Shown: positions 4,067 through 57,777 of the stretch, in pieces
How positions within the stretch are numbered: position 1 is the stretch's first letter
Layout of the letters: each line of letters begins with the position of its first letter
DNA from: a virus
Reading direction: 5' to 3' (one strand)
Length of the DNA stretch: 64,000 nucleotides
IMG/VR virus record: IMGVR_UViG_3300032223_002232
Location: 32,001-96,000 of that record
Notes under the pieces: model-generated
What the model saw: the letters and a program-made list of their open reading frames with translations, nothing else
What the model was told of the DNA's origin: nothing
The model's database searches: none
Translations under genes and position numbers: made by a program

Positions 4067-7000
4067 TTACCAGCTGAGTGTCGCACCATTAAGCGCATAT
4101 GGTCTTGTTATTGAACCTTCATTTGTTAATGAAACCGAACCAAGACCTTCAGTTGAGAATCCTGCTCTACCACCTACGCCTAATGCACCAGATTGAGCAA
4201 ACAATTGAACACCATTTACACCTGTTGCACCAAACCAATTACCATAACCACCCACGCTACCATATTGATCATTTGCTGCATTAAGTCCAGATCCAGTAGC
4301 TGCCCATCCAACAGGTGCTACTGTTGGTGATGATTCTACATAATTTCCAAGTGTTGGATTATTAATTTCCCATGCGAAGAAGTTGCCATTAACATTTTCT
4401 GTAGAAGTATTAGCAACATACCATGATCTACCATTAAATGTATATGTTGATGTTGGAGTCATTACGCCGCCTGCGCCCATACCCCATCCACCAGTTCCTC
4501 CAGCTGCTCTATATGTATATCCATTGACCTGTGATGTTGTTGTTTTTGATGTACATGTACCGTTGAGGCAGAATGACCAACAACTTCTCAATGTATGACC
4601 TGAGCAATATCCAAAGATACTGAATCCACCATCGCAACCACAAGAGCATCCACCACCTGTCATGTCTTGTCCATTACATGTTCCACATGATGAACCTCTA
4701 CTTCGACATGTACAGCCAAAAAGAAAATAAGGACATGTTGTTATTGTAGTTTGGATTGTATTTGTTGATTGCCAGTTAATACCAGCACCACCACCACCAC
4801 CGCCGCCGCCAGCATAGATTCTATTATAGTTAATGAGTGTAATTGGAATATCACTGTATATACATGTTCCACCCGGAGTACCACTACCACCTGCTGATAC
4901 AACTGTACTTGGTGTTGTTGAAGCTGCGCCTGTTGGTGCACCACCAGCACCACCAACACTATGAGCACCATATATGTTACCTAAATTGTAAATCTTAATC
5001 GTAGTTAATCCACTTGGGAAACCATTTTGTGGTGTATTGTTACTGGTTAAGATTGACATAGCAGGACATGGACCTGCTGCTTTATTTGTTAATACTCTAG
5101 CATTTGCCCAAGGTGAAGGTGCTACAGCTTGAGTTTGACTATTACCACCTGCATTACTTGAGTAAATTGTCACACCGTATGGAATAATAACTGTTAAGTT
5201 AAGTGCATTTGTACCATTCCACGTTGAATTCTTTCTAACATATTGGTAAAGATCAAGTTGATCTTGATCAGTTGGAATTGTTAAAGTTAAATTATATGTA
5301 CTACTCTGACCTTGGAAATATGGTGCAGCAATAAATTCTTCATTACTGAATACATAATTTCCACTTGCTGGTGCTGGTGGTGGAACTGGAGGTGTTCCAC
5401 CAGTTGTACCTCCACCGCCTGATGCTGGAGGTGTAGCTGCTGGTGTTTGTGAAAGTGCTGGTGTCTGTGTTACAGGATTTGAAGGTGTTTGTGTTACAGG
5501 ATTTGAAGGTGTTTGTGTTACAGGATTTGAAGGTGTTTGTGTAAATGTAGGAGTTGGTGTGTTGTAATTTGATGGTGTAACCGTCTTTGTCATCGTAGGC
5601 GTTACAGACGGTGTATTTGGTGGTGTTGTTGGTGTTACAGTTGGTGTGATTGTTGGTGTAACAGATGGTGTATTTACTGGTGTTCTTGTGACTGTTGGAG
5701 TTACAGTTGAAGATGGTGTATTTGTTGGTGTGATTGTAGATGTATTTGTAAGCGTAATTGTCGGACTGTTTGTAGGTGTATTTGTAGGTGTATTTGTAGG
5801 TGTATTTGTAGGTGTTGCTGTTGGTGATGATGTTGCACCCGGAGTTACAGTTGGTGTTGCCGTTTGTGAATTTGTAGGTGTAACTGTCTTTGTAGGAGTA
5901 TTTGTTGGTGTAGTTGTTGGTGTAACAGTAACCGTTGATGTAACTGTTAACGTTACAGATGGAGTAACACTATTAGTTATAGTTGGCGTTACGGTATTTG
6001 TAGGAGTATTTGTAGGAGTATTTGTAGGTGTAACTGTAGGCGTTACGGTTGGTGTATTTGTAGGAGTTGATGTTGCGCCAGATGTTTGTGTTGCTGTAAC
6101 GGTAGATGTTACTGTAGGAGTTGTTGTAGGAGTTGTTGTAGGAGTTACAGTTGGTGTTACGGTCGGAGTATTTGTAGGCGTTACTGTTGCCGTAACAGTT
6201 GGTGTGTTTGTTGGTGTAGCAGTTGGTGATGATGTTGCAGCAGGTGTATTTGTTGATGTTACGGTTACAGTAACAGTTGGTGTGACTGTTGGTGTATTTG
6301 TAGGAGTTACAGTAGGTGTTGTTGTTGGGGTTACCGTAGGAGTATTTGTAGGCGTTACTGTAGGTGTATTTGTTGGTGTTACAGTTGGTGTTGATGTTGC
6401 ACCAGATGATTGTGTTACAGTAACCGTCACAGTTACAGTTGGTGTATTTGTAGATGTAACTGTTGGTGTATTTGTAGGAGTTACAGTTGGTGTATTTGTC
6501 GGCGTTACAGTTGGTGTATTTGTTGGAGTATTTGTAGGTGTTACGGTTGGTGTTGATGTTGCACCAGATGATTGTGTTACTGTAACTGTAGTTGTAACGG
6601 TTGGGGTGTTTGTAGGTGTAACTGTTGGAGTAACAGTAGGAGTAACTGTTGGAGTAACTGTTGGAGTAGTTGTAGGTGTTACGGTAGGAGTAGTTGTAGG
6701 TGTTATTGTAGGTGTAACGGTTGCCGTGTTTGTAGGAGTAACTGTTGGGGTTGCAAATTGTGTTTTTGTTACAGTTACAGTTGTTGTTGATGTAACTGTA
6801 GTTGTAACGGTTGGGGTGTTTGTAGGTGTAACTGTTGGAGTAACTGTAGGAGTTACTGTTGGTGTAACTGTAGGAGTATTTGTTGGTGTTACTGATGTTG
6901 TTATTGTTGGCGTTACAGTTGGTGTTGCTGTTGGTGTGGATGTTGCACCAGATGTCGGTGATACTGTTACTGTTGTTGTAACTGTCGTTGTTGGTGTAAT

Positions 7001-10000
7001 TGTAGGAGTTGGTGTATTTGTAGGAGTTACAGTTGGTGTATTTGTAGGAGTTACGGTAGCAGAATTTGTAGGTGTTAATGAATTGGTTGGTGTAACTGTT
7101 TGAGTAGTTGTTGGTGTTATTGTTGGTGTAATTGTCGCTGTTACTGTTGGTGTGGATGTTGCCGTTGGTGATGATGTTGCGCCCGGAGTTACGGAAACAG
7201 TAGGAGTTATTGTTGTTGTTGGTGTGATCGTTGCTGAATTTGTTATTGTTGGTGTAATTGTCGGCGTAGCTGTAATAGTAGGTGTTATAGTCGGCGTTGG
7301 TGTTATTGTATTGGTTGGTGTTCTTGTGGGGGTTACAGTAGTTGTAACAGTTGATGTAATTGTTGGAGTGATTGATGGCGTATTTGTAATTGTTGCAGTA
7401 ACAGATGGTGTTGGTGTACTTGTTATTGTTGATGTTATTGTTGGGGTTGGGGTTGCCGTTGGTGTAGGAGATCCAAGCGGTGTTCTTGTGACTGTTATAG
7501 TTGGCGTAACTGTGTTTGTTGGTGTTATCGTTGCAGTCTGTGTTACTGTTGGTGTAACAGTTACAGTATTTGTAGGTGTGAGTGTTGGTGTTACGGAACT
7601 TGTTGGTGTATTGGTTGGTGTTATTGTTGATGTTACAGTTGGTGTTATAGTTGCAGTAACTGTAGTTGTGGGTGTAACTGTAGGTGTTGATGATGCCGCT
7701 GGTGTATTTGTAGGTGTGACGGTTGCTGTAACTGTTGATGTTACAGTTGGTGTGTTTGTTGGACTATTTGTAGGAGTAATAGTCTGAGTATTTGTTTGTG
7801 TAACAGTAGGTGTATTTGTAGATGTTGGTGTATTTGTTGGTGTTATAGTAGGAGTTTTTGTAACTGTAGCTGTTTGTGTATTTGTAGGAGTAATTGTTGG
7901 TGTAACCGTTACAGAAACAGTTGGTGTATTTGTAGGAGTTGAGGATGCTGCTGGTGTATTTGTCGGTGTTACAGTTGGTGTGTTTGTTGGACTTACAGTT
8001 GGTGTGTTTGTAGGTGTAACTGTTTGACTATTTGTCGGTGTATTTGTAGGAGTGTTTGTAGGAGTTACAGTTTGTGTTTTTGTAACTGTAGCTGTGACTG
8101 TAGGTGTGATAGTAGGTGTTACTGTATTTGTAGGAGTATTTGTAGGAGTTACGGTTGGAGAGTTTGTGGGTGTATTTGTTGGCGTAACTGTTACAGATGC
8201 TGTTGGAGTATTTGTAGGTGTTGATGATGCCGCTGGTGTTTGAGATTGTGTTACTGTTACAGTAACGGTTGGTGATACTGTTGGTGTAATTGTTGCAGTA
8301 ACAGATGGTGTAGGTGTTATCGTCACACTTGTTGTAGGTGTGATTGTTGGAGTATTTGTAGGTGTGAATGTAGGCGTTACAGTTACGGTATTTGTAGGAG
8401 TTACCGTTGCTGTAGTTGTTGGAGTAATTGTTGGTGTAACCGTTACAGATACCGTTGGAGTAATTGTTGGAGTTGAAGATGCCGCTGGTGTGTTTGTAGG
8501 AGTATTGGTCTGTGTATTTGTAGGAGTATTTGTAGGGGTGTTTGTAGGAGTTACAGTTTGTGTTTTTGTAATTGTTGGAGTAACTGTTACAGTGTTTGTT
8601 GGTGTTACTGATTTTGTTGGTGTTACAGTTTGTGTAACGGTTACAGTATTTGTTGGTGTTACGGTAGGAGTTACTGTTGATGTTGGTGTAATTGTCGCTG
8701 TTACTGTTGGTGTTACAGTTGGTGTTGAAGATGCAGCTGGTGTGTTCGTAGGTGTTACAGTAACAGTCGATGTATTTGTTGGAGTTGCCGTTGATGTTAC
8801 AGTTGGAGTTGGAGTGTTTGTAGGTGTAACTGTTGGAGTAACAGTTGGAGTTACTGTTGTTGTTTTTGTAACCGTAACCGTAGGTGTAATAGTTGCTGTA
8901 TTTGTAGGAGTATTTGTTGGTGTAACTGTTATTGTAACAGTTGGAGTTACTGATGCAGCTGGTGTTTGTGTTTGTGTAACAGTTGGTGTAATTGTTGGAG
9001 TGATTGTTGGTGTCTTTGTAACCGTAACTGTAGGTGTAGCTGTGCGAGTTGTTGTAGTGGTTATAGTTGGCGATACTGTTGGGGTAATCGTCGGTGTTAA
9101 TGTTGGCGTTCTTGTTGGTGTAGCAGTAGGCTTTGGTGTTTGTTCAAAAACAGGAACATCAGAATTGGCTAATTTAATTGTTGTAGCACCTCCACTATAA
9201 TAATTTAAAGTGTATTTAGAGTTACTATCTAATGGTGAATATAATGAATAAAATGCATTATATGGTGCTATTTGAAATGGTGCACAATAATTGCTAAGTG
9301 TTGAATTACTATTATCAGCTTTATTGTTAACTAATTGATTTTTAAATGTACTACTGAATATATATCCTGAAATATCTATTGTAGAATTATTTAAGAAAAC
9401 ATAATTTGGATTATTTTGATTACTATAATTTAAACTAATTACATATGAATAATCATATGTAGTTGATTTATTAGAAGTTAAATTAAATGTCCAAGTTGTA
9501 AGACCAAATCTATATGGCGTTACTATATTAAAAGATCTTTCAAAATTTAAAAATTGGAAATTTGTATTATTATAATTTAAAAATAAACGTCTATAAGTTT
9601 GATTATTTGAATCATCAATTGCAAGTGAACTTAATGTAAAATTAGTGCCTCTAAAAATTTGATCATTTAAAGTTAAATCGGTATTGGCTCCAATATTATA
9701 AAAAGATCTGGCTGTAAAATTACCATCAAATATTATTGATGCATTTAAATTACTACCATTACCAATTTCGGTATTTGTATTATAATCTAAAAATATAATT
9801 TTATTAAAATTACCAATGTTTTCTGTATTAATAAAACCTCTACTATGATAGGTCGGATTTACTCTATCAGAATTACCAATAATAGACAATCCGTAACCGG
9901 GATAATAATCAGGACCAGATGCACCTTGTATTAATTTCCAAGCTGTAGTATTCCAAGTTGCTGTACTTAAAAAGTATGGATCAGTTTGATTAATACCACA

Positions 10001-11668
10001 AACATATAATTTTGCATTTGAATATGCATCAATAGCACCATATGCATAGGTAGATGTACCAAGCATTGCTATTGTTATGTTTTGGATATTGGTTACGCCA
10101 GAATAAAAAATTAAAGCTGTTGAATCAAGAGCATTTGTATCAAACTCAAAACATAAATTTTTTAAATTTAAAGTTGTTTTTGGATGATGTGAAAATGAAA
10201 TTTGCCTTGCAAAAATTGGGTTGTTTCCATTTGAATAACAATCAATCCAATTTGATGCATTTGTTCCAAAATCTGAAAATTTTAAATTGTTATCAAAACT
10301 AATATACGTTCTAGTAGTTATTTTTCTTGGTGATATATTAAAAGGTTTTTTATCGGTATATACTGGAATAAAATTATTAGTTAAAAGGTTTGTTATGAGT
10401 TCTCCAATTTCATACATACCCAAAATTTCTACAGATAAGAAATCTAAATTAGATAAACTGAAATATGAAAATCCACCAGTTAAAGGAACACCTTTGTTTT
10501 TAGCCCAAATAAAATCACCACCTTTAATTCCTTGTGCATATAAATCTGGTTGATTAGCCTTCATCCAGTTTTCACTGAAATAAGCTGATGAAAGATTTCC
10601 ATTAAATGTACAACCAGAATAAGTTCCATCGTTTTTTGAATTATCTTCACCACAAACTAAATCATCATATATTAAAATTTTTAAAGAATTGCCAAATAGA
10701 TTATTATTTGAAACATAATCTAATACAGCTTTTATATTTTTAAAGAATGGTTTTGCTACACCAAAATCATCATTATGATCATGATCCCAAGCTGAACTTG
10801 TTTGTGATCTCACTACACTAATATTATCAGTAGATTGACTATCAGATGGTTTTACACCAAAAATATAATCGTTTTGATTTACTAGTGATAATTTATTTGC
10901 ATAATTATATTTTAAATTTGAAGATGTATCTAATGCAATATTAGCATATAGTTTATCACCATATAAATTTCCACCAATTGTTAAATTTTGATCTACATTT
11001 ATATCATTAGCTGTTAATTTATTAAATTTAGTAAATTGCGCAGAAACATAAGATGTATTTGTATTATTGTTTAGATATAAATTATTAACATATAAATTAT
11101 TTGATTGAATTTCAAAATTAATAGAACTTAAAATTTGATTATGAGTTAAAGACGTACTAGTTATATTGTTATATATTGTAGAAAGTAAATTTATAGTTGT
11201 GGTATTAATTGTATCACCAATTAATGTATTAAATGTTGCATTTGTATTTGAAGATATATTAGGTACAAAAGTTATACCGTTTGGATATCTTACATTTAAA
11301 CTTAAATTACCAACAAGATTATTACCTGTAATGGATGGTATATATGCATCTATAATTCCAACACTACCATTAATATCAAAATTAAAAATTGGATCTACTT
11401 TATTATAACCTATTTTATTGTTTTTAAGAATTAATGTATCATTAGATGTGAAAACTCTAGAGTTCTTATAAGATGAACTTATCCCAATTGTTAAGAAATA
11501 ATAAGTCTGTTCAGCTTGTGCAGTAGTATATGATAAAGGTAAACCTAAACAAGGTTCAACTGAATCAAGAGTTATAAACCCATAATTATAGGCATTACTA
11601 TTAATATCCGAAGCCGTTAAAGGCTTAAGAGGAAATAATTGTGTCAATGGAGTTAATGATATATCCAT
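4067..11668 (-). CDS. Giant fibre-like protein: N-terminal beta-rich region, ~1,230-aa Thr/Pro mucin-like stalk, Gly-rich C-terminal head with Cys-rich insert
   Basis: ~2,530-aa ORF. Likely start is ATG 11668 after an AGGGAG SD. The first ~830 aa are paralogous to 11733..14249. Confidence 0.8.
5430..9140 (-). repeat. Low-complexity coding repeat ([12 protein letters not shown])n
   Basis: About 3.7 kb of degenerate 12-bp units (e.g. gtaggtgtattt on +) encoding Thr at alternate residues. Confidence 0.95.
5460..5541 (-). repeat. 24-bp tandem repeat, ~3.3 copies, encoding TPSNPVTQ
   Basis: ggtgtttgtgttacaggatttgaa is repeated near-perfectly. Confidence 0.9.
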
Positions 11669-11732
11669 AATCAACTCCCTTAACTTGGCTCATTTTGCCA
11701 TTTTAAAAATATTTTTAATAAAAATGCATTCA

Positions 11733-14249
11733 TTACCTAGTACTTTGTGTATAAAAATTTAGTGTATAATTTGTGTTTGTTTGATTAGTTGGACTATTTA
11801 AATTAAATATTCCATACTCATTAAAATTTTTGATACCATATATACTCGTGTAATAAATTTTATCATTAGTATTGAAGTTACTATTTTGTAAGAAATTAAT
11901 ATGACCCAAAGAATTTACAGAATTTGTTAATGATATATAAGATGGTGCATGTGTATCAAAAAATGTATAATAAGAATCATATACATTATTATAAACATTA
12001 AGGTATGTGTTATAATTTGTACCCTGAACTGAATCCTGTAATCTGAAACTCCAACTTGCAAATATATTGCTTATTGGTGTAAATGATGCAAATGAACCAT
12101 TAAAATTTAAATATTTGAAATTCAAATTATAATTTGATATTTCAATTTGATATGATGCATTTGTATTTTTATTATTATATATGATATATTTTGAACTTAA
12201 TCCAAATCCAGTTGTTTTGAATAAATTTTGTTGTAATGATACAGATGATCTATTGTCAAGATTAAACAAACAATTAGCATAAAAATTACCATCAAGTATA
12301 ATACTGCTTTGTATTAAAGAATAATGACCAATCTCTCTACTAGCAGCACTATAATCAATTAATGTTAATTTACCACCATCTCTTACGTTAATCAGACCTG
12401 TATATGGTTGTGCTTCTGTATAGTTTACAATTGTTCCAGTTTGATCTGCGGGATTTCCTACAATCGCTAAACCATAACCCGGATAATAATTTGGATCATT
12501 GAACCCATAACCTGTTGACCATGTATTCCAATTTTTATTACCATAAATGTTAGTTGTTAAATAATAAGGATCTAAAAGATTATTACCACAAATATTAATT
12601 GTTGCGAGTTCAGATTCGACGTTTAATGCACCATATGTGTATATACCATTACCTAATAAAGCAACAGTAATATTTGAGAGGTTATTATTACCATTGTAAA
12701 ATACTAAACCTGATGAATCTATTGAATTTGTATAAATTTCAAAACATAAATTGTTTATTGATAAATTTACAAGCTGCGATTGGTTAAATTGAATTGGGCG
12801 ACCTATGACTGAAGATTTTGTATAAACATCAGTCCATGTATTATAATCAGTACCGTAAAAATTATTAAATGGAACGGCTGAATTTGAACAAATATATGTT
12901 CTGCATGTTATTTTTCTTGGAGCAAAATTAAATGGTCTCCATGTTGAATAATATTTTGTTAAATCATTGTTTACATATGTACCAAGTTCATATCTACCTT
13001 GTATGTTGATATTATTAAATTTTAATGGGTATAAATTAATATAAAAATATTCTCCACTTATATCTGCACTATTATTTTTAGGCCAAATGAAATCGCCGCC
13101 TTTTATTCCAGAATAATATAAATCTGGATATACAGCTTGTAGATATTCTGAACTATAAAAAGCAGAAGATATATTACCAGTATATGAACAACCTGAATAA
13201 GAACCACTACTATCAGATGTCCATGCATTTGCTTTATTCTCACCAGCTACAATATCCTCATCAACCCATATTGTTAAGTTATTACCAAAAATACCATTAG
13301 TGTAGATGTAATCTATAACAGGTTGAATATTTTTAAAATAAGGTTTTAATGTATTTGAATCGGTTGATACACCATCAGTAGGACCATTTATTGTTCTTGC
13401 TATGTTTATATCATCGGTGGAATAACTATCTGATGGTCTAATTACGAAATAATAATTTTTATTTGTAGATACACTTAATTGATTTTGATTATTGTAATAT
13501 AAAGGTGATGATTCATCTATTGCAATTTTACCATAAAAATTATTAGCATAGATATCGTTTTTAACATTAACATCATTATTAACTGTAATTTTAGTTGAAG
13601 ATACTTGACCAATAAATGAATTATTCGAACTTAAATTTTGTGTTGTTAATTTATTAGAACTATATACATTATTAGCAGTTAAATTTGCTGTTATGCTTAC
13701 GTCATTTGTTGCATATAAAGAATTTAATATATATGTGCTTACATTTTTTGTTATATAATTAAAAATACCAGCATTTAAACTAAATGTAGTAATATTGTTA
13801 GCAGTTAATTTATTAGTATATGTAGTTGCATTAAAATAAACATCACTGTTAAAACTAACACCCTTTGCATAATTAACAACAAGAGTATCATTACCATATA
13901 GGTTAGATGCATTTAAGTTTGTTATATAAGCATCAGATGCTCTAAGATTACCACTAATATCAACATTATATGTTGGATTTGGGTTATTAATACCCAATTT
14001 TTTATTTCTGATTATTAATGAATCATTACCACTAAATTTTCTAGAATTTAAATAAGAATTGGCTATTCCAAATACTGGAAAATAATATGATGAATTACTT
14101 TCAAATAATGAATAACCAGTAGGGAGTCCTAGACTAGGTTCAACTGCACCAATTTCAATATACCCTGTATTATAAGCAGTACTATTAACATTGTAATCCA
14201 GCGGATTCAGTCTATACCTATTACCTACTGATGGAGGACTCGTTGACAT
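11733..14249 (-). CDS. Fibre/structural protein, stalk-less paralog of the giant protein
   Basis: Shares blocks AYNxG..VEPSLGLP, KPx[13 protein letters not shown], PRKITxRTYI, YYPGYGLxIxGN and SIIxDGNF with 4067..11668. Confidence 0.8.
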   Translation of the reverse strand: MSTSPPSVGNRYRLNPLDYNVNSTAYNTGYIEIGAVEPSLGLPTGYSLFESNSSYYFPVFGIANSYLNSRKFSGNDSLIIRNKKLGINNPNPTYNVDISGNLRASDAYITNLNASNLYGNDTLVVNYAKGVSFNSDVYFNATTYTNKLTANNITTFSLNAGIFNYITKNVSTYILNSLYATNDVSITANLTANNVYSSNKLTTQNLSSNNSFIGQVSSTKITVNNDVNVKNDIYANNFYGKIAIDESSPLYYNNQNQLSVSTNKNYYFVIRPSDSYSTDDINIARTINGPTDGVSTDSNTLKPYFKNIQPVIDYIYTNGIFGNNLTIWVDEDIVAGENKANAWTSDSSGSYSGCSYTGNISSAFYSSEYLQAVYPDLYYSGIKGGDFIWPKNNSADISGEYFYINLYPLKFNNINIQGRYELGTYVNNDLTKYYSTWRPFNFAPRKITCRTYICSNSAVPFNNFYGTDYNTWTDVYTKSSVIGRPIQFNQSQLVNLSINNLCFEIYTNSIDSSGLVFYNGNNNLSNITVALLGNGIYTYGALNVESELATINICGNNLLDPYYLTTNIYGNKNWNTWSTGYGFNDPNYYPGYGLAIVGNPADQTGTIVNYTEAQPYTGLINVRDGGKLTLIDYSAASREIGHYSLIQSSIILDGNFYANCLFNLDNRSSVSLQQNLFKTTGFGLSSKYIIYNNKNTNASYQIEISNYNLNFKYLNFNGSFASFTPISNIFASWSFRLQDSVQGTNYNTYLNVYNNVYDSYYTFFDTHAPSYISLTNSVNSLGHINFLQNSNFNTNDKIYYTSIYGIKNFNEYGIFNLNSPTNQTNTNYTLNFYTQSTR

Positions 14250-48885: not shown

Positions 48886-51117
48886 TTATGAAGTGTAATC
48901 CCAAAGTTGAATTGCTTTATTTGTACCGTTAATATTTACTATGAGAAAATAACCAGATGCAGTAACTGGATTATTAAATGTACTTGGTGTTTGCATTATT
49001 GCTAAATTATTTACATATGTTGTATTATCCGCATCAGATGTTAAATCAGAACCAATAGCAAATGAGTTGTTATGTGTTACAACATTACCACAACCACCAA
49101 GAATTGATGAACAATATCCAGAAGCAATATTACATTTACCACCAGCTACATTGGAGTAGCATCCAGAAGCTGTATTATTATAACCGCCCGATATAGTAGA
49201 AGCTAATCCGCTACTGTTATTTTGACAACCACCACCAACACTTGCACTATTTCCATTAACAGTATTTTGATAGCCTCCACTTATTGTTGAATTATATGCA
49301 GCTAAACATGAACAATTGTAATAACCACCACTAATTGTTGACGTACTACCTGATGCATTATTACCATTTCCTCCACCGATAACTGAAGTATCTCCACAAG
49401 AAGTATTATATAGACCACCAGATACAGTAGAACAATTTCCAGATGCAGTATTACAAAGACCACCGGCTACGTTAGAAGAATATCCAGAAGCAGTATTATT
49501 ACCAGCCACAGGTTTAATGGAGTCTACACCAGTTCCAGACGTATAAACACTTGTTGCACTAGGAAACCCAGTTGCATTTGATATATCACCATATATAGCA
49601 CCACCAACAATTAAATCTTGTGATACAAAAACACCATTATCAAAATTAAGAGATAATGTATTTGCACCATTACCAATATCATTGGCACTTAAACCATCAG
49701 AAATAACTACTTCATTACCATAACCTTCAATTAATGAAGCAGATAAAACATCATTAACGGTTAAATTATTAAATATACCATTTGTAGAATATAAATTTTC
49801 AGCTGTTATGTTTGTTGCTGTTAAATCTGTAAGAATTTGAGAGTCAATAGTTCCTTGGAAATGACCATAAATATAACGACTAGCACTTATATCACCAATA
49901 ACTGTTAATTCAGTATTTGGCGAATTGGTATTAATACCAACCTTTCCTAATCCTTCAAACGGTGCATTTTTTATATTAAGAACTGAAACATCATATTGGC
50001 TAACAAAATTAGCAATATCATAATTTCCGTTTACTTGTTGTGCATAAATTGTAGGACCAACACCGGGATTTACAAGACGTAATGAACTAGTGTTTATTAC
50101 TGATGTATTGATGTCTACTCTTGTTCCTAATGTTGATAGGTTGCCATAAACAGTTAAATTATGATCAATAACAGAATCACCAAAATGTGCAGATGGTGAA
50201 TATAAAAGCGTACCTCTTAATTGTCCTTCTGATGAAAGATTATTTACAAATGTAGTATTATGAACATCAGTTGATATTTTTGAACCTAGAATAAAACTAT
50301 TACTACCACTTAAAGAATTTTGTCTACCAGCTAAAATTGCAGAATGTATACCTGATATAAAATTATCAGATCCAGCACCGATAAATGAAAATGATTCATC
50401 ATTTGTAATTTCATCATAATCTGGATATGGTATACCGTTATAACTACCCTCATCACATATAATAGTATTTCTTCCACCAGAACCAATAAATGCACCTTCA
50501 CTATTGTTTAAAATAGAATTGCAATAACCACTAACAATAGCAGAACATTCACCATTAATTATATTATTACATCCACCACCAATAAATGATAGACTTGAAT
50601 CTACTTCATTTAAGTATCCACCAACTATTGATGAATATGTACCATACATTTTATTATAACGTCCACCATTTATATTTGAATATAAAGGTTGACCTAGAAA
50701 TGAATCATATATCTCATTATCACCTTGTGTTGCTTTAATCGAACTATTAGAAAATACCATTGTATATGGTAAATCATCAGCATATAATCTTCCGTATGTG
50801 GCACTTATATCTCCAAAAACAGTTAATTTTGAGGTTGGAAGTGCAGTTCCTATACCAACATTATTATTATTAATAGTTAATGTATCTGAATAATTTGTAA
50901 ATTTTCTAGAATTACCATATATTTCATCAACTGTAATTACTGGAAAATAATATACAGTATCTGGTGCTGTATATGTATTACTTGATGGTAAACCTAAACT
51001 TGGTTCTACCGAATTAATGTTTATAAATCCATTATAATACGCATTTGTATTAATATATGGATCTAATAAACTCTTTAATTTAAAATTTTCACCTACTGAT
51101 GTTGGTTGCTGTGACAT
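48886..51117 (-). CDS. Fibre protein with beta-roll repeats (SxIxGGxxN)
   Basis: Shares the VEPSLGLP N-terminal module. Has two arrays of ~14-aa SxIxGGxxNxxxG repeats and VGIGT/VGINT motifs. Confidence 0.75.
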   Translation of the reverse strand: MSQQPTSVGENFKLKSLLDPYINTNAYYNGFININSVEPSLGLPSSNTYTAPDTVYYFPVITVDEIYGNSRKFTNYSDTLTINNNNVGIGTALPTSKLTVFGDISATYGRLYADDLPYTMVFSNSSIKATQGDNEIYDSFLGQPLYSNINGGRYNKMYGTYSSIVGGYLNEVDSSLSFIGGGCNNIINGECSAIVSGYCNSILNNSEGAFIGSGGRNTIICDEGSYNGIPYPDYDEITNDESFSFIGAGSDNFISGIHSAILAGRQNSLSGSNSFILGSKISTDVHNTTFVNNLSSEGQLRGTLLYSPSAHFGDSVIDHNLTVYGNLSTLGTRVDINTSVINTSSLRLVNPGVGPTIYAQQVNGNYDIANFVSQYDVSVLNIKNAPFEGLGKVGINTNSPNTELTVIGDISASRYIYGHFQGTIDSQILTDLTATNITAENLYSTNGIFNNLTVNDVLSASLIEGYGNEVVISDGLSANDIGNGANTLSLNFDNGVFVSQDLIVGGAIYGDISNATGFPSATSVYTSGTGVDSIKPVAGNNTASGYSSNVAGGLCNTASGNCSTVSGGLYNTSCGDTSVIGGGNGNNASGSTSTISGGYYNCSCLAAYNSTISGGYQNTVNGNSASVGGGCQNNSSGLASTISGGYNNTASGCYSNVAGGKCNIASGYCSSILGGCGNVVTHNNSFAIGSDLTSDADNTTYVNNLAIMQTPSTFNNPVTASGYFLIVNINGTNKAIQLWDYTS

Positions 51118-51165: not shown

Positions 51166-53025
51166 TTAAGCTGTTGGTGTAGCTGGTGTTTCAGTTGGGG
51201 CTTCGGTTCCAGCAACAGGTGATACTTCAGTTCCAGCCGCAGGTGCTGTTTCCGCTGGAGTTTCACTACCAGTAGTTTCACCTCCACCAAATTCAGGAAG
51301 AGGACCACCGCCACCACCTGATGGTGGTGTTTCACCACCAGCGGCTGAAGCTGCTTCTTCCGCTGCTTGAATATGTTCTCTCCAATTTGGACCAGTTTGA
51401 GCAATTTGATCAAGTTCCCATTTAAGAGCAGCATCTTTTCTTAACCATTCCATGTTTTCGCTGATTCTGGAATCGTTATATTCAAGATAATGACGTTGAG
51501 CAAATGTTTTTGAAATTGATTCATTTTGACTCATATCACTAAAGAGTTTCATCTTAAGTTCTAGTTCCTGATTCTTTCTAATTGCAAAGAAATTAGATGG
51601 TGGATTGAACTCTAATTGGAAATATGACTCGTGAAGTTTATATTCCTGCCACCAACCTCTTAATTTTAAGTGAGTAATAAATGCACCCTTTAAACCAGCT
51701 GCAAATTGTGACTGAAGACGAACAATAAATTTGGCAAACTTTAATTCTTCTCTTAATGTCTCTGTACCATCCTTGTAACCATCATCTGGATTAAGTCTTG
51801 TTGTTGGTACTTTAAGACTCTTATAAAGTTTATTAACAAAATACATCAAATCCTTGAGTTGATCAAGATTTTGTCCACCGGGGAGCATTTCTACATCAGA
51901 TCCAACTTCACCATTTCTTCTTGCAAACCAATATGAATCCAACATTGACTGTGGATTATAGATATTTGATGCGCCGGGGGTTTGTGATGAACCATCATAT
52001 GTTTTCTTATTCCAATATGATTGCATGAGTTGCTTCAAGTATGCTTCTGCCTTACTTGGAGGCATATTACCAACATCAATTTTAAATTTAAGACGCTCTG
52101 GTGCACGAACCATGCGGTATATAACGATAGAATCTTCAATAAGTGAAAGTTGTTTGTAAGCTCTACGGCAATTTTCAATAAATGGAATTCTTAATGTACA
52201 ATCTTCATTCCACATACCAGAATGAATATATGTAACTTGGTTTCCTTGGAATGTTACAATCTGTTGCTGTAATGCATTAGCAGGATTTGGTTGAGTATTT
52301 GGTTGTGGAAGAGTTCCATTTTTAGTATCTTGTAACGAAATAGGTTTCTGAAATAAGAAATTTTCAATAACAGCATTTTGAACATTATTGTAAATTGGAT
52401 TTATTAATTCTGATGGAATTTGTAATACACCAATAATACCTAAGTTTCTATTCTTATCATGAATAATATTTTCAAAGAAAATTTCAGCTTCTGTTAAAAA
52501 GTGTCTACAATAAGACCAACCTTTACTTTCAAGTTCAAATATATTAATAAACTTGTAAAATTCCTTTTCAATTTCAGTTCTTTCTTCTGCTTCTAATTTA
52601 GATGATGTTGAAAATTTAATTTTTATAACTCTTCCATTTTCATCTTTGTTAATGAACTCGTCACATATTTCATCCAAACAATCATTAACTTCTGCATAAG
52701 CAGCCATTCTACGATACTCGGCAATTCTTCTAACTTTGTCAGCATCTACATTAGCATAAATGTATTTGTGATAATTTTGACTTGAACCAAATGCATATGG
52801 TCCATACATGTCATTATTTTGCATCAATGGTCCTGTGACCACTGACTGTTGCATTAATTTAAAATCTCTTCTCTTTGATAACCTATCAAATAACTCATAT
52901 TTTGGGTTATTAACATCAGCTTCTACCGTATTTTGAACATATGGCAATTTAGATAAAATAGAAGAAACAAAGTTTCTACTACCATTATCAGGTTGTCTAT
53001 TACTTGGTGAAATAAAATCTGCCAT
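51166..53025 (-). CDS. gp20: Portal protein
   Basis: YRRMA, IEDSIVIYRMVRAPER..FKIDVGNMP..KAEAY, LPGGQNL, LYKSLKVP and REELKF. Confidence 0.97.
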   Translation of the reverse strand: MADFISPSNRQPDNGSRNFVSSILSKLPYVQNTVEADVNNPKYELFDRLSKRRDFKLMQQSVVTGPLMQNNDMYGPYAFGSSQNYHKYIYANVDADKVRRIAEYRRMAAYAEVNDCLDEICDEFINKDENGRVIKIKFSTSSKLEAEERTEIEKEFYKFINIFELESKGWSYCRHFLTEAEIFFENIIHDKNRNLGIIGVLQIPSELINPIYNNVQNAVIENFLFQKPISLQDTKNGTLPQPNTQPNPANALQQQIVTFQGNQVTYIHSGMWNEDCTLRIPFIENCRRAYKQLSLIEDSIVIYRMVRAPERLKFKIDVGNMPPSKAEAYLKQLMQSYWNKKTYDGSSQTPGASNIYNPQSMLDSYWFARRNGEVGSDVEMLPGGQNLDQLKDLMYFVNKLYKSLKVPTTRLNPDDGYKDGTETLREELKFAKFIVRLQSQFAAGLKGAFITHLKLRGWWQEYKLHESYFQLEFNPPSNFFAIRKNQELELKMKLFSDMSQNESISKTFAQRHYLEYNDSRISENMEWLRKDAALKWELDQIAQTGPNWREHIQAAEEAASAAGGETPPSGGGGGPLPEFGGGETTGSETPAETAPAAGTEVSPVAGTEAPTETPATPTA

Positions 53026-53068: not shown

Positions 53069-54550
53069 TTAGTATAAACCCGGTGACCTTGTTGGCGTTG
53101 GTGTTGGATTACTAGTCTTAGTTGGAGTTGATGTTGGTACGTTTGTATAAATTGGTGTTGATGTAACGTTAACTGATGGTGTAATGCTAGGTGTAATGGT
53201 TGGTGTGTTTGTAGGCATTACTGTGTTAGTTGGAGTGTTTGTAGGTGTATTTGTAGGTGTATTTGAAACAGTCCTAGTAGGGAATGGCGTTCTTGTAATT
53301 GTTGCTGTAATTGATGGTGTTGGTGTATTTGTTGGTGTGTTAGTATTTGTAGGTGTGTTTGTTGGAGTATTTGTAGGTGTGTTTGTTGGAGTATTTGTAG
53401 GTGTAACCGTAATAGAAACCGTTATTGATGGAGTAGGTGTATTTGTTGGAGTATTTGTAGGTGTGTTTGTTGGAGTATTTGTAGGTGTTTCAGTATTTGT
53501 GGGTGTATTTGTTGGAGTATTTGTTGGAGTTTCAGTATTTGTGGGTGTATTTGTAGGTGTGTTTGTAGGTGTAACTGTAGGCGTTACTGTGTTTGTAGGT
53601 GTAACTGTGTTTGTAGGTGTATTTGTAGGTGTAACTGTGGGCGTTAATGATTTTGTAGGTGTATGCGTGACAGTATGAGTTGGTGTGACTGTATGAGTTG
53701 GTGTGACTGTATGAGTTATTGAAGGGGAAGGTGTGTTTGTCGGTGTAACAGTATAAGATGGTGTAACTGTTTTTGTGATAGTTGGTGTATTTGTTTGTGA
53801 AGGTGTAACTGTTACGGTTGGAGTATTTGTTGGTGTAACCGTAGGAGTTACAGTTGGAGTAACTGTATTTGTTTTTGTTGGAGTTTTTGTAATTGTTGGT
53901 GTTTGGCTTACGGTTTTTGTTATAGTATTGGTTGGTGTAAATGTTGGTGTATTAGATGGTGTGTTTGTAGGAGTTACGGTTGGTGTAACTGTAGGTGTAC
54001 TTGTAGGAGTTATAGTTGATGTTACAGTTGGTGTCGCTAAAGATGGATTTGTTGGTGTTACTGATGGTGTTGATCTTGGTAATACTGGTGCAATGTAAAC
54101 ATGTATACCAGATATACTTGGTGATTGAATATCAACAGCACCACTCCATGAACTTAAAAATGGTACAACACTACCATTTGTCAATGTACCATAACCCGCT
54201 TCGTTTTCGACTATGATATCAATGTATCCAGTTGTTTTTGGTATTTGTGGTAAAGTGAATGCAATATAATTTTCTTTATATATAAAAATTGGTATTATAA
54301 CTCCACTAAATGGTGGGTTGTATGATGATAAATTTTTTATATTAGAAAAATGATTTATATAAGTTAAATTATCAAACATATTAATGTCTGATGCACTTAA
54401 ATAAACAGCAGTTAAATTTTTAAGATCTTTTCCATGAACTAAAATGTTTAAATCTTTATCTGTAAAAAATGCAGAGTTATTTAAATATATTGTTTCATGA
54501 TTAACACCATGAATCAACGGTTTAGCATATATAAAAAATTCTTCGCTCAT
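53069..54550 (-). CDS. Protein with IPT/Ig-like N-terminal domain and ~330-aa C-terminal Thr/Pro/Asn mucin-like tail
   Basis: GYIDIIVENEAGY, then (TPTN/TPTV)n to the C-terminus; lies between gp15 and gp20. Confidence 0.8.
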   Translation of the reverse strand: MSEEFFIYAKPLIHGVNHETIYLNNSAFFTDKDLNILVHGKDLKNLTAVYLSASDINMFDNLTYINHFSNIKNLSSYNPPFSGVIIPIFIYKENYIAFTLPQIPKTTGYIDIIVENEAGYGTLTNGSVVPFLSSWSGAVDIQSPSISGIHVYIAPVLPRSTPSVTPTNPSLATPTVTSTITPTSTPTVTPTVTPTNTPSNTPTFTPTNTITKTVSQTPTITKTPTKTNTVTPTVTPTVTPTNTPTVTVTPSQTNTPTITKTVTPSYTVTPTNTPSPSITHTVTPTHTVTPTHTVTHTPTKSLTPTVTPTNTPTNTVTPTNTVTPTVTPTNTPTNTPTNTETPTNTPTNTPTNTETPTNTPTNTPTNTPTNTPTPSITVSITVTPTNTPTNTPTNTPTNTPTNTNTPTNTPTPSITATITRTPFPTRTVSNTPTNTPTNTPTNTVMPTNTPTITPSITPSVNVTSTPIYTNVPTSTPTKTSNPTPTPTRSPGLY

Positions 54551-54552
54551 TA

Positions 54553-55293
54553 TTATGCTCCTGTTCCAAATATGTCTTCAAAATTTGTTATGAGTGAAGA
54601 TGTTTGTGGTGTTAATGTTCTACCATCATATGCAAAATAATTTGAATTTATTGTGTATATCTTTTTATAAGGATCTCCTATCTTTTTAAAGAACCATCCT
54701 TTAATTGTAAAGCTTGTTTCAGCTGTTATTCTAAATGGTGCTGTTGGTGCTAAATCTTGTGGATAAGCAATAGCAACATTCCCACTCCATAAAACTTCAT
54801 TTCTTAATTCATATGGTATTGACGAATTATGGATGTTCGGTATTTTCCAAGAAATTACAACATATGGATCTGTATATGGTATAAAATTATTTAATATTTG
54901 ATCCATATCTAATTGATACCTTGTAACAATTGTCATATTAACAGTAATATTAATTGGTACTGGTTGTAATATTTTTTTAATTAAAGCTTCTGAATTTGGT
55001 TCTTGATATTCGATATTAAATCCATCATTTTTATTAAAAACACGAGATTGATCTCTTGAAATGCCGCCAATGGTAACAGCAACAACTGGAACTGTTAAAC
55101 CACCCGGTGCTGGATTTTTTAAACTATTATAAACTCTTTGTTTTGGAGAATAAACATATAAAACTTTAAACCCACTTGTTGGCGCAACAATTGTATTACT
55201 ATGATCATATCTTTTTATGACAATATCATTAAATGCACCAATAAATTGTTCTAAAAGTGTTTGGGTCTCAAACCCAAATGTATAATTTTTCAT
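54553..55293 (-). CDS. gp15: Tail sheath stabilizer/terminator
   Basis: FIGAFNDIVIKR, QPVPINI, DQILNNFIPY and SFTIKGW. Confidence 0.85.
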   Translation of the reverse strand: MKNYTFGFETQTLLEQFIGAFNDIVIKRYDHSNTIVAPTSGFKVLYVYSPKQRVYNSLKNPAPGGLTVPVVAVTIGGISRDQSRVFNKNDGFNIEYQEPNSEALIKKILQPVPINITVNMTIVTRYQLDMDQILNNFIPYTDPYVVISWKIPNIHNSSIPYELRNEVLWSGNVAIAYPQDLAPTAPFRITAETSFTIKGWFFKKIGDPYKKIYTINSNYFAYDGRTLTPQTSSLITNFEDIFGTGA

Positions 55294-55542: not shown

Positions 55543-55885
55543 TTATCAATAATATACTATCCCAGAACTTATTTCCACTTATTTTTTTAGGATATACTAA
55601 TAAATTAGTTTCAATTTCGGGTGCATGTTTAGCTAAAGTTTTAATTCTATAATCAAAATAAATTAAACTCTCATCTTCATGTATTTCAACATCGTAAGGA
55701 ATCGGTAATTCTATTTTTTCTTTACTTTTTTTAGCTGTATCCATTACTAGTGTAATATAAAAGTTTTTTTGATAAAATAATACAACCTTTCCTTGCTTGT
55801 AAGGTTTATTTTTTAATTCTAAAGTAATATTTTTTTGTAAAAGATATTTGCAAGCTTTTTCTATAGTTGTACCATGAATTGTCAT
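55517..55885 (-). CDS. Hypothetical protein
   Basis: 122-aa ORF in a tightly packed operon. Confidence 0.7.
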   Translation of the reverse strand: MTIHGTTIEKACKYLLQKNITLELKNKPYKQGKVVLFYQKNFYITLVMDTAKKSKEKIELPIPYDVEIHEDESLIYFDYRIKTLAKHAPEIETNLLVYPKKISGNKFWDSILLINASGKIDI

Positions 55886-55886
55886 A

Positions 55887-56339: not shown

Positions 56340-56342
56340 TTA

Positions 56343-56723: not shown

Positions 56724-56731
56724 ATTTGCAT

Positions 56732-57103
56732 TTATTTAGTACTAATACTAAATTCTGCAAGTGCATCTTTAAAAAAATCTATTTCTCTTTGAGAACATTC
56801 CATTAATGATGCCATATTAACATCTTCATCGTGTTCTTTTTCTTTAACTTTCTTTTTTATATAAACTAATCTCTTATTGTATTTAGGTAATAATAATCTA
56901 TAAAACTCTTCTATATTAAATTCAGGAACTTGCCTACACCATTTGTTAGTTGTGAGATTTATAATTCTACAAAAACCACTATTAGCCATTGATAACCACC
57001 TATTAACTAAAAATATAGGTGGTTTGTAATTTTTGGGTGGTTGATTTTTGTTCTTTAAAACATAATCAATAAACTCAAATAAACTATTATCTTTATATTT
57101 CAC
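56732..57103 (-). CDS. gp62: Clamp loader small subunit (gp62-like)
   Basis: LFEFID.VL..K, Y.P.FLVNRWLSM and YIKK resemble gp62. Confidence 0.65.
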   Translation of the reverse strand: MKYKDNSLFEFIDYVLKNKNQPPKNYKPPIFLVNRWLSMANSGFCRIINLTTNKWCRQVPEFNIEEFYRLLLPKYNKRLVYIKKKVKEKEHDEDVNMASLMECSQREIDFFKDALAEFSISTK

Positions 57104-57777
57104 TTTTTATAAAACTTCTTAAAAATTTCAGCACTTTGATGCCATTCTGGTGAATTCATACTATCACCAAGACCAAAATGCGTCAACTTAATTGGAGCAA
57201 CACCTATTTTAAGCTTGTTTTCATTAGCTCTTAAACAAAATGTTATGTCATAATGATGAAATCCAAACTTTTCATCAAAGAATGTGTTTGTATCAATTAA
57301 TTTTGCAACATTAACTGCTATAAAAAGACCATCAATCACCAATGCTCTTGAATCTGTTAACCCAAAAATAGAAGTCCATACGTTTTTACCACTTGAATGT
57401 GCAACTTCACCTACATGATTATCTCTACTGGACATTAAATGCCATGCTGGAACTTGTGCAGATAAATCGCAAGTAGTTGCACCAGCTAAACCTACAATAT
57501 CATATTTTTCAAAAGCTATATTAAGTTTTTCTTCAAGAAAAAGATCATCAATTAATACATCATCATGTACAAATATTAATTTTTTATCTCTGTTAGCTAA
57601 TGTAAAGAATGAATTATACACAATAGGAAGACCTTTTGTATTTTCATACACAATTTCACATGAATTTGTATAACCAGCTTTTTCTAAAAAAAGCCCAATT
57701 TGAGACTTTTCCCAGAAATCATTATGATTATATTGAGTTGCTACTATAAATTTATAATTATTTGGTGATTTAGACAT
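57100..57777 (-). CDS. GT-A fold (GT2-like) glycosyltransferase
   Basis: GLPIVYN, IFVHDDV (DxD-like), VIDGLFIA, FDEKFGFHHYD and H.GLG. Likely start MSKSP at 57777. Confidence 0.8.
   Translation of the reverse strand: MSKSPNNYKFIVATQYNHNDFWEKSQIGLFLEKAGYTNSCEIVYENTKGLPIVYNSFFTLANRDKKLIFVHDDVLIDDLFLEEKLNIAFEKYDIVGLAGATTCDLSAQVPAWHLMSSRDNHVGEVAHSSGKNVWTSIFGLTDSRALVIDGLFIAVNVAKLIDTNTFFDEKFGFHHYDITFCLRANENKLKIGVAPIKLTHFGLGDSMNSPEWHQSAEIFKKFYKK

What the first reader, a model, noticed from the sequence alone, without database searches (positions are those of the whole stretch)
4067..57777. Candidate phage glycocalyx: mucin-stalked virion proteins plus phage glycosyltransferases and a sulfotransferase
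Seen: four structural-region genes (4067-11668, 16766-18433, 18430-20130, 53069-54550) carry Thr/Pro tracts of about 1,230, 70, 40 and 330 aa. The window also has a coupled GT9-like glycosyltransferase and sulfotransferase pair (44640-46384) set among fibre genes, and a GT2-like enzyme (57100-57777). Known: PT/mucin tracts are O-glycosylation acceptors in bacterial cellulase linkers and in mucins, and some phages glycosylate their virions. Inference: this phage may coat its particle with glycosylated, possibly sulfated, bottlebrush filaments for shielding, protease resistance or reaching through a host capsule.
Basis: partly seen in the sequence, partly recalled or inferred. Interest (0 to 1): 0.85.

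Follow-up and report, generated by a model that had tools for sequence, protein, structure and literature searches.

The report
Probably sugar-coated phage Thr/Pro stalks

Summary
Four minus-strand structural-module genes carry Thr/Pro tracts of about 1,209, 93, 56 and 304 aa (43-47% Thr in the two long ones), and two more such genes lie outside the window. The sulfotransferase, the GT9-like fold and the GT2-like enzyme are all real.

Thr/Pro tracts do co-occur with a phage glycosyltransferase, but it is a soluble GT60 (PF11397, E 4e-69) about 8 kb upstream of the window.
- At least 5 TPTxTPT hits occur in 33/45 GT60+ phage records against 3/18 GT60- records (p 5e-5).
- GT60 occurs in 14/38 records picked only for Thr/Pro DNA, against 0/22 controls.
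- The cultured phage XacN1 has this GT60, at least 12 Thr/Pro genes and published Schiff-positive virion proteins.

The GT9-like/sulfotransferase cassette is present in Thr/Pro-free relatives and absent from Thr/Pro-rich ones. It tracks instead with UspA1-like Ser/Gly/Asn repeat fibres (9/9 against 8/54). The GT2-like gene is core to the clade.

No sugar has been measured. This scan has noted the GT60 and Thr/Pro pairing many times before on other DNA (177 notes, at least 123 genomes).

The parts
4067..11674 (-). Giant fibre-like protein (2,535 aa). The N-terminal ~830 aa are a fibre body, followed by a Thr/Pro stalk (nt 5531-9157, aa 840-2048) and a Gly/Cys-rich C-terminal head (aa 2049-2535).
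   Evidence: The N-terminal ~105 aa are shared with two other fibre genes. The body is paralogous to 11733-14249.
11733..14249 (-). Stalk-less paralog (838 aa) of the giant protein's first ~830 aa.
   Evidence: BLASTP 36% identity over 850 columns, E 3e-136.
16766..18490 (-). Conserved ~250-aa N-domain, then a Thr/Pro linker (nt 17465-17743), then a Gly_rich_2 distal domain.
   Evidence: (PF21722 3.9e-17). Orthologs of 227-286 aa in G001, G005, G006 and G010 lack the linker and the distal domain.
18430..20130 (-). Conserved ~220-aa N-domain, then a Thr/Pro linker (nt 19306-19473), then a 291-aa distal domain.
   Evidence: Orthologs of 203-270 aa in five relatives lack the linker and the distal domain.
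53069..54550 (-). Neck-associated protein: a 157-aa all-beta N-domain (54080-54550) and a ~300-330-aa Thr/Pro tail (53168-54079 and onward), with no distal domain.
   Evidence: The N-domain exists alone (159-185 aa) in G001, G004 and G006, and is fused to the C-terminus of gp15 in G005, G009 and G010.
54553..55293 (-). gp15 tail sheath stabiliser/completion protein, the inferred docking partner of the Thr/Pro neck protein.
   Evidence: PF16724 1.4e-16. Fusion forms in relatives.
51166..53025 (-). Portal protein (gp20).
   Evidence: phrog_213 3e-102.
44640..45569 (+). GT-B glycosyltransferase with a GT9-like fold. First gene of a two-gene cassette.
   Evidence: No Pfam hit. AF2 model and Foldseek hits to GT9 heptosyltransferases and TibC. 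539 homologs at E<=0.001, the listed ones all unnamed or 'hypothetical'. Distribution.
45566..46384 (+). Sulfotransferase, overlapping the stop of the GT9-like gene.
   Evidence: PF13469 and PF00685 above cut-off. Homologs annotated as sulfotransferase in cyanophages S-SKS1, S-SRM01 and S-SCSM1. Distribution.
48886..51117 (-). 743-aa fibre with Ser/Gly/Asn-rich repeats like the UspA1 head (aa ~520-710). The protein type that tracks with the GT9-like/sulfotransferase cassette.
   Evidence: PDB 3pr7 UspA1 E 4e-17. Repeats found in 9/9 cassette-bearing records against 8/54 others.
57100..57816 (-). GT-A glycosyltransferase (Glyco_tranf_2_5). A core gene of the clade, lying at the border between structural and replication genes.
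   Evidence: PF13712 3.3e-8. Orthologs in all nine compared genomes. Primase and dNMP kinase lie next to it.
36865..38346 (-). Major capsid protein gp23 (context). It carries no Thr/Pro tail.
   Evidence: tblastn 32-34% identity to cyanomyovirus gp23. Not flagged.

Best explanation
The window is the structural module of an uncultured, low-GC, T4-like myovirus (169.8-kb contig). This lineage has extended otherwise short, conserved virion proteins with Thr/Pro tracts. The tracts either carry a distal domain (a Gly-rich head or an unknown 291-aa domain) or end free, as in the gp15-associated neck protein. The most likely mechanism runs as follows. While the proteins are still in the host cytoplasm, a soluble phage GT60 enzyme puts alpha-GlcNAc on the tract threonines. 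That enzyme is at genome 23067-24320, about 8 kb upstream of the window, and is a homolog of the protist polypeptide alpha-GlcNAc-transferases that start mucin-type O-glycans. Neighbouring island genes then extend and O-methylate the sugar: GT17-like, GT31-like, RXYLT1-like, and a TylF-type methyltransferase fused to an HtrL/YibB domain. The result would be stiff, protease-resistant, hydrated stalks projecting from the neck and the baseplate or fibres. Shown here: the tracts, the enzymes' family assignments, the lineage-specific gain of the tracts, and the GT60 and Thr/Pro co-occurrence. Inferred: the acceptor (Thr), the sugar, virion location for all but the gp15-linked protein, and the function. 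The window's own GT9-like/sulfotransferase cassette is a separate mobile unit. It more probably serves the UspA1-like Ser/Gly/Asn repeat fibres (about 0.35), and the GT2-like gene is a clade-wide core gene of unknown target.
For: GT60 family assignment:
- PF11397 E 4.4e-69.
- The D-S-H motif is invariant in three phage copies. It matches the DxH that replaces DxD in GT27 and GT60 (PMC7185993).
- GT60 enzymes start mucin-type O-glycans on Thr in Dictyostelium and T. cruzi (PMC8724618).
- T. cruzi gp72 carries a heavily glycosylated PTVTPTP-type domain very like these tracts (PMC3630849).

Co-occurrence of GT60 with Thr/Pro tracts:
- Among nine near-whole relatives, only G000, G012 and G013 have GT60. 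They hold 6, 6 and 5 Thr/Pro genes (1,887, 721 and 474 aa), against 0-1 genes in the other six.
- GT60 is the only G000 gene shared exclusively with G012 and G013.
- 59/80 GT60-centred 20-kb loci hold Thr/Pro tracts, against 12/80 portal-centred loci (p 4e-14).
- At least 5 TPTxTPT hits occur in 33/45 GT60+ records against 3/18 GT60- records (p 5e-5).
- In the reverse test, 14/38 records chosen only by Thr/Pro DNA carry GT60, against 0/22 Walker-A-chosen controls (p 9e-4).

Tracts are add-ons to conserved short proteins.

Virion link:
- The neck protein's domain is fused to gp15 in three relatives.
- The giant protein shares its N-terminal ~105 aa with two other fibre genes.

External support:
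- Cultured phage XacN1 has a 48%-identical GT60.
- It has at least 12 Thr/Pro genes, including ORF369 directly beside its gp15 homolog.
- It has at least two Schiff-positive virion bands, which its authors ascribed to its two GTs (PMC5852040).

Other points:
- No ThyA-family/dCMP hydroxymethylase or TET/JBP gene is present to make a DNA acceptor.
- No PF13640 prolyl hydroxylase is present, which favours Thr over hydroxyproline as the acceptor.
Against: - No glycan, glycopeptide or virion proteome exists for this phage.
- The XacN1 glycoprotein bands were never identified.
- The co-occurrence is imperfect. G005 (92% complete) has a 240-aa PT/SP protein but no GT60. G052 (85% complete, GT60+) has no TPTxTPT hit. 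G011 and G018 have tracts but no GT60 on their incomplete contigs.
- The records are phylogenetically related, so the Fisher p-values overstate independence.
- Virion location of three of the four window proteins rests on gene position and shared domains only.
- No GT60 of bacteria or phages has been characterised, so the acceptor could differ.
- G000 is only 77% complete.
Confidence: 0.6

Rival explanations
1. The Thr/Pro tracts are unmodified extended linkers, as PT linkers can be in bacterial multidomain enzymes. They would simply space distal domains away from the particle. GT60 and the other GTs would act on something else, such as host envelope, a small molecule or DNA.
For: Three of the four window proteins use the tract as a linker between two folded domains. 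G005 keeps a 240-aa PT/SP protein without GT60, and G052 has GT60 without TPTxTPT hits. No sugar has been measured.
Against: The two-way GT60 and Thr/Pro enrichment. The 304-aa tail of 53069-54550 links nothing. Tracts of 1,200 aa with 46% Thr far exceed spacer needs. XacN1 virions hold Schiff-positive proteins. No DNA-hydroxymethylation genes were found.
Confidence: 0.2
2. One reading: the window's own GT9-like/sulfotransferase pair and the GT2-like enzyme build sulfated glycans on the Thr/Pro stalks.
For: All three enzymes are real. In phages G050 and G053 the GT9-like/sulfotransferase cassette lies in the same co-directional cluster as Thr/Pro genes and GT60. XacN1 has an annotated GT9 7 kb from its GT60, though it is not detectably homologous to this one.
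Against: The cassette is present in Thr/Pro-free G002, G004, G006, G010 and G015, and absent from Thr/Pro-rich G012 and G013. The sulfotransferase occurs in 5/36 Thr/Pro+ records against 7/27 Thr/Pro- records. The GT2-like gene occurs in all nine genomes regardless of tracts.
Confidence: 0.12
3. The GT9-like/sulfotransferase cassette, and possibly the core GT2-like and GT4-like genes, modify the host envelope during infection. The target could be the LPS core, as for canonical GT9 heptosyltransferases, or a capsule. The effect would be to block superinfection or aid release, not to modify virion proteins.
For: The best structural matches are LPS heptosyltransferases WaaC and WaaF. The cassette is on the opposite strand to the flanking late structural genes. 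Sulfotransferase homologs occur in cyanophages.
Against: The cassette tracks tightly with UspA1-like repeat fibre genes and is adjacent to them in at least three lineages. TibC, a protein O-heptosyltransferase for an autotransporter adhesin, is an equally good structural match.
Confidence: 0.2

Closest known systems
Protist CAZy GT60 polypeptide alpha-GlcNAc-transferases acting on Thr/Pro-rich mucin domains (Dictyostelium, Trypanosoma cruzi)
   Same: Same Pfam family (PF11397, E 4e-69) and the same DxH motif. The presumed acceptors are Thr/Pro-rich, uncharged repeat tracts very like T. cruzi gp72's PTVTPTP domain.
   Different: The phage enzyme starts directly with the GT-A core. By eye it has no N-terminal membrane anchor, so it must act in the bacterial cytoplasm rather than the Golgi. 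The substrates are virion proteins. The activity is untested.
Mycobacteriophage virion glycosylation (Freeman et al. 2023, cited in PMC12619734)
   Same: Phage-encoded glycosyltransferases decorate the phage's own structural proteins, with a proposed shielding role.
   Different: In mycobacteriophages the glycans sit on short C-terminal tails of the major capsid and tail-tube subunits. Here the capsid protein has no such tail. The acceptors are 50-1,200-aa Thr/Pro stalks on neck and fibre-like proteins, and the candidate initiating enzyme is GT60.
Xanthomonas jumbo phage XacN1 (PMC5852040)
   Same: It has a GT60 homolog (ORF334, 48% identity), many Thr/Pro-tract genes, one of them directly beside the gp15 homolog, and Schiff-positive virion proteins.
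   Different: It is a distant Rak2-like jumbo phage of 385 kb. Its authors did not link the glycoproteins to Thr/Pro tracts or to GT60, and the stained bands were not identified.
Autotransporter heptosyltransferases TibC/AAH acting on adhesin repeats (PDB 4rb4, 4rap)
   Same: The GT9-like fold of 44640-45569 matches TibC (E 3e-7, TM up to 0.62). Its cassette tracks with fibres whose repeats match the head of the trimeric autotransporter adhesin UspA1.
   Different: There is no sequence-level GT9 match. The coupling to a sulfotransferase has no TibC counterpart. The donor sugar and the acceptor are unknown.

Membership tests
CAZy GT60 / Pfam PF11397 (gene at genome 23067-24320, outside the window) | Sequence match to the family model above its curated cut-off | tested here: met
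   E 4.4e-69, 234 bits against a 21-bit cut-off. Confirmed on the DNA.
CAZy GT60 / Pfam PF11397 | DxH metal-binding motif in place of DxD | tested here: met
   D92-S93-H94 is invariant in G000, G012 and G013. The motif is described in PMC7185993.
CAZy GT60 / Pfam PF11397 | Transfer of alpha-GlcNAc from UDP-GlcNAc to polypeptide Thr (or Hyp) | not testable with these tools
   Needs an enzyme assay. The absence of a PF13640 prolyl hydroxylase in five genomes argues for Thr.
Mucin-like domain | Long, degenerate tandem repeats rich in Thr/Ser and Pro, nearly uncharged | tested here: met
   46.5% T and 17.5% P, with 1 acidic residue in 1,209 aa. Period-12 degenerate repeats.
Mucin-like domain | Dense O-glycosylation | not testable with these tools
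   Supported only indirectly, by GT60 co-occurrence and by XacN1 Schiff staining.
CAZy GT9 (44640-45569) | GT-B fold most similar to heptosyltransferases | tested here: met
   The top Foldseek hits are 3tov, 1psw, 6dfe, 2h1h and 4rb4, at E 1e-9 to 3e-7.
CAZy GT9 (44640-45569) | Sequence match to the GT9 family model (PF01075) | tested here: not met
   No Pfam family at E <= 0.01. So it is GT9-like in fold and not a demonstrated member.
Sulfotransferase (45566-46384) | Match to the PF13469 and PF00685 models above cut-off | tested here: met
   39.2 bits (cut-off 27) and 30.1 bits (cut-off 22).
Sulfotransferase (45566-46384) | PAPS-binding 5'-PSB and 3'-PB motifs | tested here: inconclusive
   By eye, P-R-S-M-S-T at residues 9-14 and R-N...S at 113-121. 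A Met sits where I recall a Gly in the canonical loop.
Mycobacteriophage-type virion glycosylation | Acceptor tails on the C-termini of the major capsid and tail-tube subunits | tested here: not met
   gp23 aligns end to end with cyanophage gp23 and has no Thr/Pro tract.
T4-like myovirus (Straboviridae-like) | gp23, gp20, gp15, gp6/gp25, gp21 and gp44-type clamp-loader homologs | tested here: met

The most novel reading that the evidence does not exclude
The phage runs two separate cytoplasmic protein-glycosylation systems for its own particle. The first is a GT60-initiated, methylated mucin-type coat on Thr/Pro stalks, including a ring of free ~300-aa mucin-like whiskers anchored at gp15 on the neck. 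The second is a TibC-like GT9 enzyme plus a sulfotransferase that puts sulfated sugars on adhesin-like beta-roll fibres. Together these would give a bacterial virus a true, partly sulfated glycocalyx.
Probability: 0.2. Interest if true: 0.88.

Novelty: new variant of a known kind. Interest (0 to 1): 0.68.

Why it matters
Protein glycosylation of phage particles is known from only a few cases, and none of them is mucin-type. If GT60 enzymes glycosylate Thr/Pro stalks, then hundreds of environmental phages, including abundant T4-like ones, carry a eukaryote-like O-glycosylation pathway that works in the bacterial cytoplasm. That would change how we think about several things: virion surface chemistry, adsorption through capsules or sheaths, resistance to proteases and grazers, and antigenicity of therapeutic phages. 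It would also offer a soluble bacterial-cytoplasm enzyme for making mucin-type glycoproteins. The question is directly testable in the cultured phage XacN1. Separately, the negative result matters for annotation: the sulfotransferase and GT9-like genes next to fibre genes should not be assumed to act on the Thr/Pro tracts.

Tried and rejected
- Megablast of 24 kb of the window against 50,697 phage records gave no match.
- Complex prediction of gp15 with the 157-aa N-domain gave no verdict (score 0.00), which is no evidence either way.
- The AlphaFold model of that N-domain was poor (pLDDT 56). Foldseek gave only weak Ig-like beta-sandwich rows (E > 0.01), so no fold is claimed.
- Sequence searches of the PDB with the GT60, the sulfotransferase and the GT2-like protein found nothing usable.
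- Pfam found nothing for the giant protein's N- and C-terminal parts, its paralog, or the distal domains.
- The T4 late-promoter box TATAAATA occurs 12 times against 20.5 expected. No timing argument can be made for the enzyme genes, and the region upstream of 44640 is ambiguous.
- A phylogenetic-profile search for a substrate of the GT9-like/sulfotransferase pair, at >= 40% coverage, found none. The repeat-fibre link appeared only with a domain-level search.
- Literature searches for phage GT60, or for O-glycosylated Thr/Pro tracts in phage fibres, found no paper. Freeman et al. 2023 is not held in the library.
- A hydroxyproline route (Gnt1/PhyA-like) was considered and set aside, because no PF13640 hydroxylase is present.
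- DNA glycosylation was considered and judged less likely, because no ThyA-family hydroxymethylase or TET/JBP gene is present. The contig is only 77% complete.
Full report
WHAT THE WINDOW IS. The window is bases 32001-96000 of a 169,763-bp IMG/VR viral contig. The contig is linear and CheckV rates it 77% complete. GC content is about 31%. It is a distant T4-like myovirus:
- The major capsid protein at 36865-38346 is 32-34% identical to cyanomyovirus gp23.
- The portal is at 51166-53025 (phrog_213, 3e-102).
- The gp15 tail sheath stabiliser is at 54553-55293 (PF16724).
- Baseplate wedge gp6- and gp25-like proteins, scaffold, prohead protease, head closure and a head-tail adaptor are all present.
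No cultured phage is close at the DNA level.

THE OBSERVATION. All four genes exist and carry the tracts described. The tract in 4067-11674 spans aa 840-2048. It is 46.5% Thr and 17.5% Pro, with one acidic and five aromatic residues in 1,209. The proteome background is 7.9% Thr and 4.6% Pro. The tail of 53069-54550 (aa 158-461) is 43% Thr and 20% Pro. The linkers in 16766-18490 and 18430-20130 are shorter, at 93 and 56 aa by the sliding window. At the DNA level the tracts are degenerate four-codon arrays with 60-80% matches, so they are old and maintained, not fresh slippage. The DNA pattern for TPTxTPT occurs 135 times in the genome, and its reversed control 0 times. Two more Thr/Pro genes lie outside the window.

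The enzymes are also real. 45566-46384 passes both sulfotransferase Pfam models, and 57100-57816 passes Glyco_tranf_2_5. 44640-45569 has no Pfam hit. Its AlphaFold model (pLDDT 75.5, pTM 0.78) has GT9 heptosyltransferases and the protein O-heptosyltransferase TibC as its best PDB matches. "GT9-like" is therefore right at the fold level only.

THE TRACTS ARE LINEAGE-SPECIFIC ADD-ONS TO VIRION PROTEINS. I fetched eight near-whole relatives (portal identity 51-74%) and compared domains.
- The N-domains of 16766-18490 and 18430-20130 form a conserved adjacent pair of 203-286-aa proteins in five relatives. Those versions end where the Thr/Pro linker begins in this phage.
- The 157-aa N-domain of 53069-54550 stands alone (159-185 aa) in G001, G004 and G006. 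In G005, G009 and G010 it is fused to the C-terminus of gp15. That fusion, together with the gp15, Thr/Pro gene, portal gene order here, places this protein at the tail-neck junction. Its ~300-aa tail, which ends free, would project from there.
- The giant protein equals its 838-aa neighbour (36% identity, E 3e-136) plus a stalk and a Gly/Cys-rich head. Its first ~105 aa are shared with that neighbour and with the 743-aa fibre at 48886-51117, as expected of a common anchoring domain.

WHICH ENZYME GOES WITH THE TRACTS. Notes from other first readers on this genome pointed to glycosyltransferase islands outside the window, and I checked them with Pfam. The gene at genome 23067-24320 is a strong PF11397/GT60 member (E 4.4e-69). 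Its island also holds GT17-like, GT31-like and RXYLT1-like proteins and a TylF-type O-methyltransferase fused to an HtrL/YibB domain. The island sits directly after a Thr/Pro-bearing RCC1-repeat protein.

GT60 enzymes are the polypeptide alpha-GlcNAc-transferases that start mucin-type O-glycans on Thr in Dictyostelium and T. cruzi (PMC8724618). They use DxH in place of DxD (PMC7185993). The phage copies keep an invariant D-S-H and begin directly with the catalytic core, so they should be soluble. T. cruzi gp72 carries a heavily glycosylated PTVTPTP-type domain (PMC3630849).

1. Among the nine genomes, GT60 is present only in G000, G012 and G013. These have 6, 6 and 5 Thr/Pro genes, against 0, 0, 0, 1, 1 and 1 in the others. 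GT60 is the only G000 gene shared exclusively with G012 and G013.
2. GT60 homologs at 50-71% identity occur in at least 206 IMG/VR contigs. Of 80 GT60-centred loci, 59 hold Thr/Pro tracts within 10 kb, against 12 of 80 portal-centred loci (p 4e-14).
3. Whole records: at least 5 TPTxTPT hits in 33/45 GT60+ records against 3/18 GT60- records (p 5e-5). All five GT60+ records that are at least 90% complete are positive.
4. Reverse test: of 38 records of at least 40 kb picked only by a TPTxTPTxTPT DNA pattern, 14 carry GT60. Of 22 picked by a Walker-A pattern, none does (p 9e-4).
Exceptions exist. G005 has a tract but no GT60, and G052 has GT60 but no pattern hit. The records are also not phylogenetically independent, so the p-values are optimistic.

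THE WINDOW'S OWN ENZYMES FAIL THE SAME TEST. The GT9-like gene and the sulfotransferase form a conserved cassette in nine of 63 records. Five of those nine are Thr/Pro-free relatives (G002, G004, G006, G010, G015). The Thr/Pro-rich G012 and G013 lack it. The sulfotransferase occurs in 5/36 Thr/Pro-positive and 7/27 Thr/Pro-negative records (p 0.33).

A caveat applies: in G050 and G053 the cassette, Thr/Pro genes and GT60 share one co-directional cluster. A role on stalk glycans in GT60-bearing phages is therefore not excluded.

WHAT THE CASSETTE TRACKS WITH INSTEAD. The 743-aa fibre (48886-51117) has Ser/Gly/Asn-rich repeats that match the head of the trimeric autotransporter adhesin UspA1 (PDB 3pr7, E 4e-17). 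Such repeats occur in all 9 cassette-bearing records, against 8 of 54 others (p 1e-6). They lie next to the cassette in at least three lineages. In the complete record G039, a sulfotransferase is sandwiched between two repeat proteins. Given the TibC-like fold, fibre glycosylation is a reasonable hypothesis, but it is untested.

EXTERNAL SUPPORT. Four cultured jumbo phages carry a GT60 homolog at 47-48% identity. XacN1 has 51 TPTxTPT hits and at least 12 Thr/Pro-tract genes, including ORF369 directly beside its gp15 homolog. Its description reports at least two Schiff-positive virion protein bands, and the authors suggest its two GTs (ORF328 and ORF334, the GT60) make them (PMC5852040). The bands were never identified.

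ALTERNATIVES. Unmodified linkers remain possible (about 0.2). DNA glycosylation is less likely, because no ThyA-family hydroxymethylase or TET/JBP gene was found on this incomplete contig. A hydroxyproline route is unlikely, because no PF13640 hydroxylase is present.

VERDICT. The mucin-like stalks are most likely O-glycosylated, but by a GT60-led island outside the window. Sulfation of the stalks is unsupported.

Published work on phage virion glycosylation concerns a different acceptor type (mycobacteriophage capsid and tail-tube tails). I found no paper on phage GT60. This scan, however, has recorded the GT60 and Thr/Pro pairing many times on other DNA. I rate this a new variant of a known kind.

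Noticed in passing
window 44640-46384 and 48886-51117; L484-L489: The GT9-like/sulfotransferase cassette co-occurs with UspA1-head-like Ser/Gly/Asn repeat fibres (9/9 against 8/54 records, p 1e-6). It lies beside them in at least three phage lineages. In G039 a sulfotransferase sits between two such fibre genes.
   Followed up: partly
window 53069-55293; L114:6796-8076, L132:12934-14220, L159:13903-14985: The 157-aa N-domain of the Thr/Pro neck protein is a separate gene here and in G001, G004 and G006. It is fused to the C-terminus of gp15 in G005, G009 and G010. This is a gene-fusion link that places it at the tail-neck junction.
   Followed up: partly
window 4067-11674, 11733-14249, 48886-51117: Three fibre-like genes share a ~105-aa N-terminal domain (about 41% identity), probably a common anchoring module. 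The first two are full-length paralogs over about 830 aa.
   Followed up: yes
L244:343-2127 (XacN1 ORF369), beside ORF368: In the cultured jumbo phage XacN1, a 594-aa protein with a ~230-aa Thr/Pro tract lies directly next to the gp15 homolog. This is the same arrangement as in this window, although the phages are only distantly related.
   Followed up: partly
window 41665-44577: A 970-aa protein with four Laminin_G_3 (ConA-like lectin) stretches and a weaker match to a lectin-like receptor-binding jelly-roll family. It is probably a receptor-binding fibre. It lies directly upstream of the GT9-like/sulfotransferase cassette, on the other strand.
   Followed up: no
window 34810-35730: A gp44-type clamp-loader gene (phrog_168, 1e-72) sits between the baseplate wedge genes and the capsid gene, which interrupts the structural module.
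   Followed up: no
G012:C1:30043-32120 (L139): Two neighbouring ORFs end and begin inside a Thr/Pro tract. This looks like one gene split by a frameshift or by an assembly error within the repeat.
   Followed up: no
G005:C1:140191-141819 (L115): A 542-aa protein with long (PT)n and (SP)n runs, in a 92%-complete relative that has no GT60. It is the clearest exception to the GT60 and Thr/Pro rule.
   Followed up: no
window 61266-62482: A plus-strand two-gene unit that another reader noted as a heme oxygenase plus bilin reductase. I did not examine it, but it may bear on the host or on auxiliary metabolism.
   Followed up: no
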